This document shows, piece after piece, positions 9,623 to 36,800 of a stretch of DNA of 64,000 bases. The position numbers and the translations under genes were made by a program. The stretch comes from the human T2T-CHM13v2.0 reference genome, Homo sapiens, in the NCBI RefSeq assembly GCF_009914755.1, contig NC_060925.1. One strand, given 5' to 3'. How positions within the stretch are numbered: position 1 is the stretch's first letter; every line of letters starts with the position of its first letter. The notes under the pieces are model-generated. The model was not told the origin of the DNA and did no database searches. It saw only the letters and a program-made list of their open reading frames with translations.

Positions 9623-9866
9623 TTACTGTGGGAATATGACTCCCATCTGGAAGACCAGGTGGAGACTTGTTCCCATCAAAGTAAGAAACCTATTGTCCAC
9701 GTCAAGGGCGAAGCTGATGTGCTGTTCCTCAAATGAGTAAAACACACTTCTGTAGTGCTGGAATGAGTCAGGTAGTTCAAAGAACAGTGACAGAGTCGAA
9801 TAACATCTATCCAGTGAGTCCTGCAAGATTTCAGGCTCTTCCACTTCCATCAGCACACCGCTGAGC
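9623..9866 (-). CDS. NBPF1: exon 49 coding part, terminal CON3 domain and stop
   Basis: [14 protein letters not shown]...MGVIFPQ*, TAA at 9625-9623. Confidence 0.92.
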
Positions 9867-12800
9867 CTGGAAAAGCAGACAAAACTAAAGAAGCAGCCAG
9901 GGAAAATCAGACACCACAGAGCCCCACTAGATTTCAGAAGTAACATAAGGAAGTGGTAAGAAAAGAAAAGGATAGATCCATTAATGAGGTAAAAAAAAAA
10001 ATTATTGCCTTTATGTTGGGATAGAAAAGGGCCAGGTAGAAAACAATGAAAGAGAAAGACAGAGAGACAGAGACAGAGACAGAGAGAAAATGAGCTAGTG
10101 AATTGGCCAGGTGACATACTGGTAAGGGAGTAAAAGGACACTCTGAGTTAGTGCCCTCATGACACACAGCAAACTGCGATCATGAAAAGAGTGAGCTCAA
10201 TAGTTTTCCATAAAATATGCTCAAAATTCGATGCAGTGGCCACGAGAGTACAGCTTTTGAAGTATGGTCATCCTATGGTACGTTAGTAAATAAGGGGAGG
10301 AAGAAATGGAAACCTAAACGTCTCCTGCAATGAAAACCAACAGCAATGACAGTAGGAGTAATTCAGCCTTCGCTGAAAACATGAAATCAAACACACTCTG
10401 GTTTCCCTGAATCTGTTGCCTCCAGGTGTTAACACAGAATTAAGCATCCACAATTGCTGAAAGTTACCTGGGGCATGGTGGGTTTTGATCTTCTTCCCCT
10501 TCTTTTCTTCCCCTTCTCCTTCTTTTCTTCGTTGATCTTCTTCCCCTTCTTTTCTTCCCCTTCCCCTTCTTTTCAATTTCTGCAATAAATTCAGACATGG
10601 ACAGACACATTAAGCTGATTCCCCTACACACATAACAATCCACTGTCTAATCCTCACACAGGGACCTCAGGCTCCTCAGCATAAGAATAGGAGACTGTGA
10701 GAGATATATTTCAGGAGGCCTGAAGGCTGGTCATGATAGAAATTCCTCGGTTTTTCTCCCAGAAACTGTGGGTAAAATGTCCCTATTCTAGTAGATCGTT
10801 ATCCCAATATCATTTGTCCCGAGTTTGTGCAAACAGTTATGCCATATTTTTCCAATCAATTTAAAGCAAATACCCTCAAATGATTTCTAGGAGAAAAACT
10901 GCAATATTTAGCCCTGTCTCATCAAATACTCAGATTGTTCATGGTTGTGAGGACTTTAGACACTGAAATTAGAGTGAAAAAGGAAATCTACCAACCCTTG
11001 AGTCAAAATCATAGTTCTCTGAATTTGTCACATCTGCCCAGGTCCAATGTCATGAGAGTAGAATCAGAGTGCCACAGGCATGGCCTGAGACTAGGAAGAG
11101 AGCCATGCTCACTGACCCATCCCATGTCTGGGCTTCCAGTTAGAACTAGAGTTTCATTCAACCTACATGTGCCTATAGGTCCTCACTGCAGCAATGACAT
11201 CTCTCAGCTCAGTAATGGCCACTTGGAGCAGGAATATGATCTTTATATGGAAGACTCAGTGGATCCTTATCACCTTCATAGAAAGGTACTCACCTCCCAC
11301 GTCAAGAGAAAAGCCAACATGTTTTTCCTCCAATGCATAAAAGGAACTTCCATAGGGCAGGCAGGAGTCAGGCTGTTCAAGACAACTGGAAGGAGTTGAA
11401 TAACATCTATCCAGTGAGTCCTGCAAGACTTCAGGCTCTACTGCCTCCAGCAGCTCCCTGCTGAGCCTGGAAAAGGAGGAAAAAGTAAAGAATAAGCCAG
11501 GGGAAATCAGACACAACAGAGCCCCAACTAGGTTTCATGGGTAGCATAAGGAAGTGGTTGAAAAAGTAAAAGGAGAGATCCATTAATGAGGTAACAAATT
11601 ATTGCCTTCATGTTGGGACAGAACAGGGCCAAATGGAAAAGAATGAAAGAGAAAGACAGATAGACACACACACACACACACACACACACACACACACACA
11701 CACACACACACACAGAGAATGAGCTCAGTGAATTGTCCAGGTGACACACTGATGAGGGAGTAACAGGACACTCTGAGTTAGTGCCCTCAGGACACACAGC
11801 ATACAGTGATCAGGAAAGGACTGTGCTCAATAATTTTCCATAAAATGTGCTCAAGTTTCCATGCAGTCGCCATGAGAATACAGTTTTTGAAGTCTGGTCC
11901 ACCTACAGTAGGTTAGTAAATGATAAGGGGAGGAAGAAATGGAAACCTAAATATCTACTGCAATGAAACCAACAGCAATGTTAGTAGGAATAATTCAGGC
12001 TCGGTTGAAAAGATGTAATCGATAATGTCAGCCCGCCCTGTTTTCCCTGAACCAGGAGTCTCCAGATGTCAACACAGAAGTAGCTGTTCACAATTGCTCA
12101 GTTACCTGGAGCATGGTGGGCCTTGGTCTTCTTCCTCTTCTTGGTCCTTTTTAATTCCTGCAATACATTCAGACAGGGACAGACAAAATAAGCCAATTCA
12201 CCTACACCCGTAACAGTCCACTGTCTAATCCCCACGCAGGGATCTCAGGCTCCTCAGCAAGAGAACAGGACAATGTGAGAGATATACTTCAGGAGGCCTG
12301 AAAGCTGGTCATGATATTCTTTGGTTTGCATCTCAGAACCAAGGGTGAAATATCCCTATTCTGGTAGATCGTTATCCCAAAATCATTTATCCCAAGTTTG
12401 TGCAAACAGTTATGCCTTATTGTTCCCATCAGTTCAAAGACAATGCCCCAGATGATTTCTAGGAGGAAAACTGCAGTATTCAGCCCTGTCTCATCAAATG
12501 CCCAGCTCGTTCATGGATGCAAGAATTTTAGACACTGAAATTAGAATGAGGGAGGAAATCTACAAACCCTTGAGTCCAAATCATAGTTCTGTGAATTTTT
12601 TACATCTGCCTGGGTCCAATGTGCTGAGAGCGGGCTCAGGTTGCCACAGGCATGGCTGGAGACTAGGAATAGAGCCTTGCTCACTGACCCATTTCATGTC
12701 TAGGCTTCCAGCGGAGACTACAGTTTCATTACAACCTATATGCGCCCATAGGTCCTGCCTGCGGCAATGACATCTCTCGGGTCAGTAAGGGCCACTGGGA

Positions 12801-33800: not shown

Positions 33801-36800
33801 TGTGCTCAAGTTTCCCTGCAGCCACCATGAGAATACAGCTTTTGAGGTATGGTCAACCTTCACTAGTTTAGTAAATGATAAGGGTAGGAAGAAATGGAAA
33901 CCTAAACATTTAATCTAATGAGAACCAAAAAGCAATGTAGTAGGCATAATTTAGACTTGTCTGACAAGACAAAATCATTATTTTCAGCATGTACTGTTTT
34001 CCCTGGACTTGGCATCTCCAGGTGTCAACATCAAATTAACTGTCCACAATTTCTCAGACTCACCTGGGACCTGTTGCCTCTTGGTCCTCCTTTTTCACTT
34101 GATCCCACCGATGTCCTGCAAATAAATTCAGATGGGGCCTCTTACATTAAGCAGTTCTTCCTTGCACACAGAAACATTCCTCTGTCCAATCCTAACACAG
34201 GGACATCAGTCTGGTCAGTGTGAGAACAGGAGACTTTGAGAGAAATATTCCAGTAGGCCTGAGGTCAAGTCTTGAGAAAACTGGCTTGGGTTCTTTCATG
34301 AGCCTTGGGCAAAATTACCCTGTTTTGGAATGTTATCTTCCCTATGTGCTCTGTCCTAGGTTTGTGTACACAAATGAGCAACTTTTTCCCCAATAAATTG
34401 TAGGCAAATAGTTCTAACACCTCATAGGAGAGATACTTCAATATTAAGCTTTCTCTCATCAAATACCCAGAATTTGTTAGTTTATGAGATTGTGGACACA
34501 GAGATTTGATGAAGGGGTGCAATGTCCCAGCTCTTGAGTCAAAATGAAACTTGGTTCTACACAGAAGCATCAGCTATTATGGCTTTTGTGGGTGAAAAGT
34601 CAGCCATTTATCTAGAAAACATACCAGGAACATGACGGACAGATGAGCTAAAGCAAGCGAACTTAGAAGACACAGAAAATGGGAATAAATTCAGTGAAAC
34701 CTGGGCCACATCTTTCACTGAGAGGTAGACAAGGGTGACACTTGCCTTGGGCAGGTAAAGAACCACACAGACATGCTTTGGGAACAAAACTCATAAGGAA
34801 TTTTGTAGCTGGCAAGAGACATTTAATTCAGATGAGCTGATCTGACAGACAACTCCTGGTCATGTGCTGCATAGTTTGGTGTGAGCTTGCCACACCTGCC
34901 TTGAGTTCAATGTCGTGACAGTCAGTCCAGGTTGGCACGGGCATGGCCTGAGACTAGGAAGAGAGCAAAGCTCACTCACCCACCCCATGCCTGTGCTTCA
35001 GACTCGACTCCAGAGTGATTGAAATCTACATTGATATATAGGTTCAGCCCACAGTGATGGCAAATCTCAGCCCAACAAGGGGCACAAGGCCCAAAGATTA
35101 TGGGGTCTACCTGGGCCATGAACTGGAGCTTTATCACCTTCACAATGGAGTACTCACCGCCTATGTCAACAGCCATGCAGACTTGCTGTTCCTCTAATGA
35201 GTGAAATGTGCCGCTGTAAGACTGGTACGAGGCCAACATTTCAGGAGGAATTGAGAGAGTCGAATAACCTTCATCCCAGGACTCCTGGGGGACTTCCTCC
35301 TCTTCAGACTCCTGCAGATTCCTGATGAGCCAGGCAGGACAGGGATGATAGAAGATTTAACCAACAGACATTAGACAACAAAACCTCCCGGATGATCTGA
35401 TGGGAGACAGAATGGAGTGGTCACAGAAACCAAAGGCATTTTTCCTTCAAGAGAAATAAAACTATCCTTCTAAATACAGGGTGGAGGGTGACTGCTCTGG
35501 GGACAGAGCAAAAATGGGCAGCATGTGCTCAGTACATTTGCCACAGATGAGCCAACTCAGGGCACCCAGACTCTCCCTGTAAACTACCATCATGACTTGC
35601 AGCACAGAGAACTGACACAGGGCTTCAACTACTTTGCATAAATTGGGTTGAGTTTTACATGCAGCATTCAAGTGAAGAGAGTTCTTGACGCAGTGCAGAC
35701 ACAGATCTTGTGTATTAAGGGCCCCATTTTCCCAATATTTTGATATAATATATTTACCTTTTCAATTTCTTTTCTTGCAAAAATACTAGCCAACATACTA
35801 CCAACAAATAGGAAGAAAGCATATATACATCTCTCCCTGGATTTAAACACATGGGAGAGAATAGGCAACACCAAGAAATCCCTGTTTGAGGGTCTGGAGT
35901 GGATTTCCAGCAAACTCCAACAGACCTGAAGCTGAGGGACCTGATTGTTAGAAGGAAAACTAACACACAGAAAGGAATAGCATCAACATCAACAAAAAAG
36001 ACATCCATCCCAAAACCCCATCTGTAGGTCGCCATCATCAAAGACCAAGGGTAGATAAAACCACAAAGGTGGGGAGAAACCAGAGCACAAAAGCTGAAAA
36101 TTCCAAAAACCTGACATCCCTTTTCCTCCAAAGGATCACAGCTCCTCGCCAGCAATGGAACAAAGCAGGATGGAGAATGACTTTGATAAGCTGACAGAAG
36201 TAGGCTTCAGAAAGTCGGTAATAACAAACTTCTCTGAGCTAAAGGAGGATGTGCGAACTCATCGCAAGGAAGCTAAAAACCTTGAAAAAAGATTAGACGA
36301 ATGGCCAACCAGAATGAACAGTGTAGAGAAGACCTTAAATGACCTGATGGAGCTGAAAACCATGGCACGAGAACTACGTGATGCATGCACAAGCTTCAGT
36401 AGCCAATTCGATCAAGTGCAAGAAACGGTATCAGTGATTCAAGATCAAATTAGTGAAACGAAGCGAGAAGAGAAGTTTAGAGAAAAAAGAGTAAAAAGAA
36501 ATGAACAAGCCTCCAATAAATATGGGACTATGTGGAAAGACCAAATCTACGTTTGATTGGTGCACTGAAAGTGACGGGGAGAATGGAACCAAGCTGGGAA
36601 ACATTCTTCAGGATATTATCCAGGAGGACTTCCCCAACCTTGTAAGGAAGGCCAACATTCAAATTCAGGAAACACAGAGAACATCATAAAGATACTCCTC
36701 GAGAAGAGCAACCCCAAAACACATAATTGTCAGATTCACCAAGGTTGAAATGAAGGAAAAAATGCTAAGTGCAGCCAGAGAGAAAGGTCGGATTACCCAC

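What the first reader, a model, noticed from the sequence alone, without database searches (positions are those of the whole stretch)
9623..34115. NBPF1-type gene carrying five Olduvai HLS triplets: apparent independent triplet expansion
Seen: five 735-nt coding triplets with intact splice sites give 2194 aa and 20 Olduvai domains; subtracting four triplets gives exactly 1214 aa. Recalled, to be verified: reference NBPF1 (1p36) is 1214 aa with one triplet, and the large triplet expansions are described for 1q21 genes such as NBPF10/14/19/20. Every triplet here carries NBPF1-type residues ([29 protein letters not shown]). Inference: the triplet expanded in situ on an NBPF1 background rather than being imported from 1q21.
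Basis: partly seen in the sequence, partly recalled or inferred. Interest (0 to 1): 0.8.

Follow-up and report, generated by a model that had tools for sequence, protein, structure and literature searches.

The report
NBPF1 carries five home-grown Olduvai triplets
In the complete human genome the NBPF1 gene on 1p36 holds five tandem copies of the three-domain Olduvai block, all of NBPF1's own sequence type, so this brain-evolution repeat also grew outside 1q21; the array itself has already been published.

Summary
Window 9623-34115 (minus strand) holds five in-phase 4.7-kb Olduvai HLS triplet units plus CON3. All exons have AG/GT splice sites. Read together they give an open 2194-aa frame with 20 Olduvai-type exons.

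RefSeq's selected transcript uses only 3 of the 5 triplets (1704 aa).

Over 4.1 kb of unit body, all 15 1p36 units form one clade (100/100) apart from the 18 sampled 1q21/1p11 units. An AU test rejects a common clade of "extended" units (p=1.3e-43). There are 57 locus-specific sites and no type-specific sites. The four NBPF1-type motifs occur in 15 of 15 1p36 units and 0 of 18 others.

One caveat remains. The CON3/HLS1 crossover junction lies in the same 24-62-nt tract as in the 1q21 arrays, so a single origin followed by local homogenisation is not excluded.

Novelty is limited. Gluncic 2023 published this 5-copy array as "NBPFA1". Yang 2023 listed it as a 20.4-kb insertion in NBPF1. A 9-triplet sister gene lies about 150 kb away. 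Neither the link to NBPF1 nor the local-origin analysis turned up in my literature searches.

The parts
9623..9866 (-). CON3 large exon with stop codon (last coding exon of NBPF1)
   Evidence: Hub annotation. Pfam Olduvai E=1.5e-20. Translation.
10468..15190 (-). Unit U1, the 3'-most extended triplet. Exons 14413-14585, 13642-13693, 12867-13039, 12106-12157, 11294-11466 and 10468-10579. None is used by the annotated selected transcript.
   Evidence: all AG/GT. 98.7-98.8% identical to U2-U4.
14475..14684 (-). CON3-type patch inside U1. It covers part of the intron and most of the HLS1 large exon, so that domain is a CON3/HLS1 hybrid. Probably a gene-conversion tract.
   Evidence: 11-13 differences from the 1p36 CON3 monomers, 17-19 from other CON3 monomers, 47 from U2. 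U1 has 46 private columns.
15191..19904 (-). Unit U2, an extended triplet, in the annotated transcript
   Evidence: 99.92% identical to U3.
19905..24628 (-). Unit U3, an extended triplet. Its exons 20731-24022, together with the 112-nt exon at 24629-24740, lie in the annotated 'intron' 20017-25454.
24629..29334 (-). Unit U4, an extended triplet
   Evidence: Nearest relative is unit 16168709 of the sister array.
29335..34115 (-). Unit U5, the first (canonical) triplet. It starts with the 52-nt HLS1 small exon 34064-34115.
   Evidence: It groups with the first triplets of the two other 1p36 copies.
19392..19453 (-). CON3/HLS1 crossover junction interval of U2. The equivalents are 14678-14739 (U1), 24116-24177 (U3) and 28822-28883 (U4). 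The narrow 24-nt version in U2 is 19430-19453.
15191..15302 (-). 112-nt 'extended' HLS1 small exon. It is identical to the CON3 small exon 10468-10579, with further copies at 19905, 24629 and 29335. It encodes the polybasic stretch containing RSTKKRRRR.
35158..58082 (-). Upstream coding part of NBPF1: a CON2-type Olduvai exon at 35158-35321, three CON1-type Olduvai exons at 40563-40768, 46827-47038 and 53116-53327, and the start codon in 57908-58082.
   Evidence: Hub annotation.

Best explanation
Window 9.6-34.1 kb is the 3' half of NBPF1 in T2T-CHM13. It holds one canonical HLS1-HLS2-HLS3 triplet, four 'extended' triplets and then CON3.

Shown: each extended unit is a mosaic. Its small exon and the first ~510 nt of the following intron are CON3-type. 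The rest is HLS1-type. Both halves carry 1p36 (NBPF1-lineage) bases.

Inferred mechanism: an unequal crossover (non-allelic homologous recombination) took place between NBPF1's own CON3 monomer and its own HLS1 monomer. It happened in a short tract where the two are identical, and it created the first extra triplet. Further unequal exchanges between 4.7-kb units then added copies.

Inferred order of events: growth began after the split from the single-triplet NBPF1-like copy at 16.65 Mb. It began before the segmental duplication that produced the 9-triplet sister gene at 16.16-16.20 Mb. It continued in both genes afterwards. A later conversion from CON3 patched the last unit.

Inferred, not tested: every extended unit keeps the polybasic motif in its small exon. 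By analogy with the 1q21 genes, the 2194-aa product would be a proprotein that furin can cut into separate triplet proteins.
For: Structure. Mosaic.

Local type of the unit body: U2 differs from its own first unit at 17 positions and from 1q21 units at 96-107. The 15 1p36 units form a 100/100 clade. The AU test gives p=1.3e-43 against one clade of all extended units. In the body there are 43 by-locus sites and 0 by-type sites.

Local type of the unit head: the 1p36 internal heads and 1p36 CON3 heads form one clade, SH-aLRT 96. The head has 7+7 by-locus sites and 0 by-type sites.

Motifs: 15 of 15 against 0 of 18.

Order of events: the 16.65-Mb single-triplet unit is the outgroup to all units of both arrays (98/89). 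The two arrays share unit subtypes. Flank mismatch is 43 in 16,667 nt (0.26%) to the sister gene and 55 in 9,002 nt (0.61%) to the 16.65-Mb copy.

Recurrence is plausible. The junction tract is the longest (55-62 nt, 2 of 5 genes) or second-longest (24 nt, 3 of 5) identity run between CON3 and first-HLS1 monomers. The two-triplet gene at 147.81 Mb has a different junction, alignment columns 702-717. Gluncic 2024 reports short triplet tandems in gorilla and none in chimpanzee or orangutan (passages).

Furin analogy: the Pacheco preprint places the site in the extended HLS1 and CON3 small exon (passages).
Against: The crossover junction falls in the same interval (alignment columns 628-696) in the 1p36 arrays, in all four large 1q21 arrays and in the 1p11 array at 120.84 Mb. 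Where CON3 carries a T-run, the interval narrows to 24 nt. That coincidence would also follow from a single origin.

Tandem and neighbouring repeats homogenise by gene conversion, and this window shows one such patch in U1. By-locus clustering therefore does not by itself prove independent birth.

The nearest locus-specific sites lie at columns 419 and 785. A transferred tract carrying the junction and shorter than about 370 nt cannot be excluded.

I examined no reads, no other haplotypes, no ape genomes and no transcripts. Furin cleavage of the 1p36-type motif is untested.
Confidence: 0.75

Rival explanations
1. Single origin. The extended triplet, with its CON3/HLS1 junction, arose once in an ancestral NBPF gene or was passed between loci. 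Each locus then homogenised its units against its own first triplet and CON3 by gene conversion and unequal exchange (concerted evolution).
For: The junction interval is identical in the 1p36 and 1q21/1p11 arrays. The whole-unit tree groups all extended units together. Gene conversion is visibly active here, as the U1 patch shows.
Against: The grouping comes only from the first ~500 nt, which is the mosaic structure itself. No site is shared by extended units across loci against their parental types: 0 of 14 informative head sites and 0 of 43 body sites. The 16.65-Mb 1p36 copy has one triplet and lies outside all array units. Body divergence between 1p36 and the other loci is about 2.3%, against 0.4% between first and extended units within 1p36. 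Chimpanzee is reported to lack tandem triplets, so this rival needs losses plus complete homogenisation over 4.7 kb.
Confidence: 0.17
2. Import. The extra triplets were copied into NBPF1 from a 1q21 expanded gene by ectopic recombination or a long conversion tract.
For: None beyond the shared junction interval.
Against: All four extended units carry 1p36-type bases on both sides of the junction. All four 1p36-specific motifs are present. The AU test gives p=1.3e-43.
Confidence: 0.02
3. Assembly artefact. The array is over-expanded in the assembly and the true haplotype has fewer units.
For: U2 and U3 differ at only 4 positions plus a 10-column indel. Such near-identical repeats are where assemblies can go wrong.
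Against: Every unit is distinguishable: U1 has 46 private columns, and U4 differs from U2/U3 at 13-15 positions. Two independent papers using this assembly report the same extent. The sister array has the same unit types in a different order and number. I could not examine reads.
Confidence: 0.04

Closest known systems
Expanded Olduvai-triplet genes of 1q21 (NBPF10, NBPF14, NBPF19, NBPF20)
   Same: Tandem 4.7-kb HLS1-HLS2-HLS3 units. The extended HLS1 small exon is taken from CON3 and carries a polybasic motif. The CON3/HLS1 junction lies in the same tract.
   Different: Location is 1p36.13, not 1q21. There are 5 units against 13-19. The small exon is 112 nt against 109 nt. The motifs are RSTKKRRRR against RSKKERRR or [16 protein letters not shown] against VGLAVDMD, and LEAVEP against LEVVEP. 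The unit bodies form a separate clade. I did not examine NOTCH2NL adjacency.
GRCh38 reference form of NBPF1 ('7 Olduvai domains')
   Same: Same gene by RefSeq's placement. Yang 2023 lists the difference as an insertion inside NBPF1.
   Different: By Gluncic's table, GRCh38 has only CON3, one HLS2/HLS3-type hybrid monomer and the first HLS1. CHM13 has 13 more monomers. The published insertion ends (window 11445 and 31869) lie 21 nt inside an HLS3 and an HLS2 large exon respectively. The GRCh38 form therefore looks like a deletion product between those two monomers (inference).
'NBPFA1', the 5-copy 3mer-HOR array of Gluncic et al. 2023/2024
   Same: It is this array. Their monomer starts at 16005104-16028683 correspond to window 9104-32683.
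   Different: They treated it as a previously unknown gene and did not connect it with NBPF1. In what I read (the passages found, sections 14 and 7, and parts 1-2 of 10 of supplementary file 2), they report no exon/ORF analysis, no paralogue-specific typing and no junction mapping.
Sister array 'NBPFA2' at chr1:16,157,912-16,201,742
   Same: 1p36-type units, the same junction and the same motifs. Its flanks are 99.5-99.8% identical to the window. All 9 of its units are open.
   Different: It has nine units. It shows its own two-unit duplications: units 16192272 and 16182852 are identical, and 16187567 groups with the array's first unit 16196987 (100/98). It has no CON3 patch in its last unit.
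Two-triplet gene at 147.81 Mb. I take it to be NBPF12, because its monomer divergence values match the GRCh38 rows lying inside NBPF12's coordinates.
   Same: One extended unit whose body groups with its own first triplet (94/96). This is another case of local growth.
   Different: Its junction is shifted to alignment columns 702-717. It is 1q21-type at the motif sites, apart from a shared PYRSAV.

Membership tests
Olduvai (NBPF/DUF1220) domain, Pfam PF06758 | Match to the family profile above the curated cut-off | tested here: met
   10 of 10 large exons tested scored 65-80 bits against a cut-off of 23. The other 10 of the 20 such exons in the window are near-identical copies.
NBPF1 / 1p36 lineage of NBPF genes | Sequence type shared with the other 1p36.13 copies and distinct from 1q21/1p11 genes | tested here: met
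   The 15 1p36 units form a clade at 100/100. There are 43 by-locus sites in the body and 14 in the head. Motifs are 15 of 15 against 0 of 18.
NBPF1 / 1p36 lineage of NBPF genes | Orthology of this copy, rather than the sister copies, to GRCh38 NBPF1 | not testable with these tools
   No GRCh38 sequence is held. This rests on RefSeq's placement (hub table) and on Yang 2023 Table 1.
Expanded Olduvai-triplet array (extended-HLS1 type) | Two or more tandem HLS1-HLS2-HLS3 units of about 4.7 kb | tested here: met
   Five units at a period of 4706-4724 nt.
Expanded Olduvai-triplet array (extended-HLS1 type) | The extended HLS1 small exon is derived from the CON3 small exon and carries the polybasic site | tested here: met
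   The 112-nt exon of the extended units matches the CON3 small exon with 0-1 mismatch. The polybasic stretch is present in all five copies. The definition is taken from passages of the Pacheco preprint.
Expanded Olduvai-triplet array (extended-HLS1 type) | Cleavage by furin once per triplet | not testable with these tools
   Sequence only. The 1p36 motif differs from the tested 1q21 motif by one inserted residue and by substitutions.
Expanded Olduvai-triplet array (extended-HLS1 type) | Location in 1q21. Gluncic 2023 states that all genes with tandem triplets are in the 1q region. | tested here: not met
   The window is chr1:15,996,001-16,060,000, which is 1p36.13 (hub table; statement quoted).
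Expanded Olduvai-triplet array (extended-HLS1 type) | Human-lineage specificity | not tested
   No ape genome is held. The only support is the low divergences (0.26-0.6% in the flanks) and Gluncic 2024's report on apes.

The most novel reading that the evidence does not exclude
Olduvai triplet hyper-amplification is not a 1q21-only event. It started independently in the NBPF1 lineage at 1p36.13, through the same short CON3/HLS1 identity tract, which would then be a recombination hotspot built into the gene's architecture. It is still running there: 7, 20 and (in the sister gene) 32 domains are seen in different assemblies and copies. By Gluncic's counts, 14 of the 75 triplets in CHM13 (19%) lie at 1p36.13. 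HLS copy-number associations with brain size, autism or schizophrenia that are attributed to 1q21 could therefore partly reflect 1p36.13 variation. Functional work done with '7-domain NBPF1' would also not represent the common protein.
Probability: 0.45. Interest if true: 0.6.

Novelty: new member of a known kind. Interest (0 to 1): 0.45.

Why it matters
Olduvai triplet number is one of the most striking human-specific coding changes. It is usually described as a property of four 1q21 genes.

This window shows that NBPF1, the founding member of the family, is itself an expanded-triplet gene in a complete genome. Together with its sister copy it holds about a fifth of all triplets in that genome.

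Its units carry their own diagnostic residues and a 3-nt exon difference. These would allow 1p36 and 1q21 copies to be counted separately in read-depth, long-read and proteomic data.

If the expansion really began independently at the same tract, it points to a sequence-encoded recombination hotspot as the driver of the expansions.

The annotated gene model (1704 aa) and the reference form (7 domains) both under-represent what this haplotype can encode.

Tried and rejected
- Tandem Repeats Finder found nothing. Its longest period is 500 nt, so it cannot see a 4.7-kb unit. I used exon scans and BLAST instead.
- An ungapped scan for the 112-nt exon found no 1q21 copies except one. The cause is a 3-nt length difference, which BLAST and MAFFT resolved.
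- The whole-unit tree grouped all extended units together. I rejected this as evidence of common descent, because the sliding-window comparison shows the signal comes only from the CON3-derived first ~500 nt.
A smaller request gave 10 kb from each of three arrays, so the 1q21 sampling is partial.
- Heft et al. 2020 (Genetics) is not held. What I say about it is second-hand, from other papers' passages.
- I considered and rejected import from 1q21 (see rivals).
- I considered chance. It is not applicable to 4.7-kb units at 97-99.9% identity.
- I did not fold or search the protein further, since the family is known.
- Note 3 of the notebook miscounts the motif tally.

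
Full report
WHAT IS THERE

The window is T2T-CHM13 chr1:15,996,001-16,060,000 (hub table; confirmed). NBPF1 lies on the minus strand.

A scan with the exons of one triplet finds the 112-nt exon five times, at 10468, 15191, 19905, 24629 and 29335, with 0-1 mismatch. It also finds fifteen 173-nt HLS exons, ten 52-nt exons and the CON3 exon.

Cut at the 112-nt exon, the five units are 4706-4724 nt long. U2/U3 are 99.92% identical and U2-U4 are 99.7% or more. U1 is 98.7-98.8% identical to U2-U4. 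The 5'-most unit U5 is 96.5-97.6% identical to the rest.

RefSeq's selected transcript NM_001405666.3 gives 1704 aa from the window. It skips two whole triplets: it splices 25455-25627 to 19905-20016, and 15191-15302 to 9623-9866. None of the 'other transcript' exons in the hub table falls inside those two gaps.

The 12 skipped exons all have AG/GT. With them the frame is 6585 nt, or 2194 aa, open to the annotated stop.

Pfam's Olduvai model matches 10 of 10 large exons tested, out of 20 in the window.

ALREADY IN PRINT

Gluncic et al. 2023 (PMC10475015; I read the passages found, section 14, and parts 1-2 of 10 of supplementary file 2) list CHM13 monomers at 16005104-16028683. That is window 9104-32683. 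They call it a novel 5-copy array, assign it to a hypothetical gene 'NBPFA1', and describe a 9-copy array starting at 16157912 as 'NBPFA2'. The same table gives GRCh38 NBPF1 only three monomers.

Their 2024 paper repeats this (passages).

Yang et al. 2023 (PMC10320979, section 7) list CHM13 chr1:16007445-16027869 as an insertion in NBPF1 relative to GRCh38.

Keeney et al. [quoted passage not shown]

'NBPFA1' occurs only in the Gluncic papers. Searches combining NBPF1, Olduvai, triplet, T2T-CHM13, long-read and 1p36 turned up no paper that ties the array to NBPF1's own sequence type or tests where it came from. Heft et al. 2020 is not held, so I cannot exclude that it says something about this.

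WHERE THE TRIPLETS CAME FROM

Using Gluncic's coordinates I fetched other NBPF triplet regions of the same genome.

BLAST with U2 gave 33 complete in-phase units:
- 5 from this window;
- 9 from the sister array;
- 1 from an inverted single-triplet copy at 16.65 Mb;
- 3 from 1p11;
- 15 from 1q21.

The 1q21 set includes only 9 internal units of the four large arrays (5, 1, 1 and 2) and none of their first units.

A whole-unit tree splits 'first' units from 'extended' units. A 250-column sliding comparison shows that this split comes only from the first ~500 columns. There U2 differs from its own first unit U5 at 101 positions, and from 1q21 extended units at 7-14. Over the remaining 4.3 kb, U2 differs from U5 at 17 positions and from every 1q21 unit compared at 96-107.

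The reason is a mosaic. Extended units are CON3-type through the 112-nt exon and about 510 nt of intron, and HLS1-type after that.

BOTH HALVES ARE 1p36-TYPE

In the body (4099 columns) the 15 1p36 units form one clade with 100/100 support. Elsewhere, extended units also sit with their own gene's first unit: 94/96 at 147.81 Mb and 100/98 at 120.84 Mb. Forcing all 23 extended units into one clade costs 550 log-likelihood units, with AU p=1.3e-43.

In the CON3-type head, the 12 internal 1p36 heads and the 3 1p36 CON3 heads form a clade (SH-aLRT 96). This includes a 3-nt difference that makes the exon 112 nt long rather than 109 nt.

I also sorted the variable columns into two classes. 'By-locus' columns are those where the 1p36 extended units match the 1p36 parental monomers and differ from the other loci. 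'By-type' columns are those where extended units of all loci match each other and differ from their parental monomers. There are 7+7 by-locus columns in the head and 43 in the body. There are no by-type columns (U1 and one truncated head were left out of those counts).

At protein level, [20 protein letters not shown] and RSTKKRRRR occur in 15 of 15 1p36 units and 0 of 18 others. Import from 1q21 is therefore rejected.

THE CAVEAT: A SHARED JUNCTION

The switch from CON3-type to HLS1-type falls between alignment columns 627 and 697. This holds in all 11 ordinary 1p36 extended heads, in all 11 heads from the four large 1q21 arrays and in the 1p11 array head. Only the 147.81-Mb gene differs, at columns 702-717.

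Eight of the 11 CON3 monomers carry a T-run inside that interval. This narrows the junction to a 24-nt tract in both lineages. In the window the junction lies at 19392-19453 for U2, with equivalents in the other units.

This tract is the longest identity run between the CON3 and first-HLS1 monomers in 2 of 5 genes compared (55 and 62 nt). It is the second-longest (24 nt) in the other 3. Repeated crossovers at the same place are therefore plausible, and the 147.81-Mb gene shows that a neighbouring junction also exists.

Even so, a single origin followed by complete local homogenisation cannot be excluded. Nor can a transferred tract shorter than about 370 nt, since the nearest by-locus sites are at columns 419 and 785. 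I put independent local origin at about 0.75.

HISTORY WITHIN 1p36.13

The sister array's flanks match the window at 99.5-99.8%, with 43 mismatches in 16,667 nt. The 16.65-Mb copy matches at 99.1-99.3%, with 55 mismatches in 9,002 nt.

The single-triplet 16.65-Mb unit is the outgroup to all units of both arrays (98/89).

The two arrays share unit subtypes. U1-U3 go with the sister's 3'-most unit (100/97). U4 goes with its third unit. The sister array also has its own two-unit duplication. Most units have 0-1 private column in 4.2 kb.

My inference is this order: a single-triplet ancestor, then the first extra triplets, then the segmental duplication, then continued growth to 5 and 9 units. All these divergences are below the usual human-chimpanzee figure of about 1.2% (general knowledge), but gene conversion can lower them.

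U1 carries a patch of about 210 nt (window ~14475-14684) that is closest to the 1p36 CON3 monomers. This turns its first domain into a CON3/HLS1 hybrid.

THE GRCh38 FORM

The ends of Yang's insertion (window 11445 and 31869) each lie 21 nt inside a large exon: HLS3 of U1 and HLS2 of U5. This fits Gluncic's single 'hybrid' monomer in GRCh38.

I infer that the 7-domain reference form is a deletion product between those two monomers, or a collapsed assembly of the clones. By arithmetic it would encode 1139 aa. I could check neither this figure nor the recalled 1214 aa against any record.

LIKELY FUNCTION

Pacheco et al. (preprint, passages) place a furin site in the small exon shared by extended HLS1 and CON3, and show cleavage for the 1q21 type. 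The 1p36 exon keeps a longer polybasic run.

By analogy, the 2194-aa protein would yield four free triplet proteins, an N-terminal part that still carries the first triplet, and a CON3 peptide. This is inferred, not tested.

VERDICT

The array is already published, though under another name and without this analysis. I score it as a new member of a known kind, of moderate interest.

Noticed in passing
outside the window: G000:C1:16157912-16201742 (loci L009-L014): A second NBPF1-like gene about 150 kb away, in the same orientation, carries nine 1p36-type triplets. All nine units are open. Its flanks are 99.5-99.8% identical to the window. Gluncic calls it 'NBPFA2'. A 2026 preprint lists NBPF1 among genes 'unannotated but present in T2T-CHM13'.
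   Followed up: partly
outside the window: G000:C1:16648586-16654631 (loci L015-L016): A third, inverted NBPF1-like copy with a single 1p36-type triplet. Its flanks are 99.1-99.3% identical to the window. It is the outgroup to all units of both arrays.
   Followed up: partly
window 14475-14684: A CON3-type conversion patch in the last triplet. It makes a hybrid CON3/HLS1 Olduvai domain that the sister array lacks.
   Followed up: yes
L009-L014, units at 16182852, 16187567, 16192272 and 16196987: In the sister array, units 16192272 and 16182852 are identical. Unit 16187567 groups with the array's first unit 16196987. This indicates a duplication two units long.
   Followed up: partly
window 40563-58082: The N-terminal coding part repeats a five-exon block (about 210, 103, 215, 73 and 212 nt) three times at a spacing of about 6.3 kb. 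Each block contributes a CON1-type Olduvai exon.
   Followed up: no
L023 (G000:C1:146698114-146702870): The single triplet at 146.70 Mb has exons summing to 728 nt instead of 732 or 735. Its frame is lost in the third domain, so that copy is probably a pseudogene.
   Followed up: no
window 9867-15190 and 20017-25454: Two annotated 'introns' of the selected RefSeq transcript each contain six intact exons, i.e. a whole triplet. Because the units are nearly identical, which triplets a fixed-length transcript appears to skip is arbitrary.
   Followed up: yes
literature: The two Gluncic papers assign the names NBPF10, NBPF14 and NBPF19 to the large CHM13 arrays in different orders. For that reason I cite those arrays by coordinate only.
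   Followed up: no
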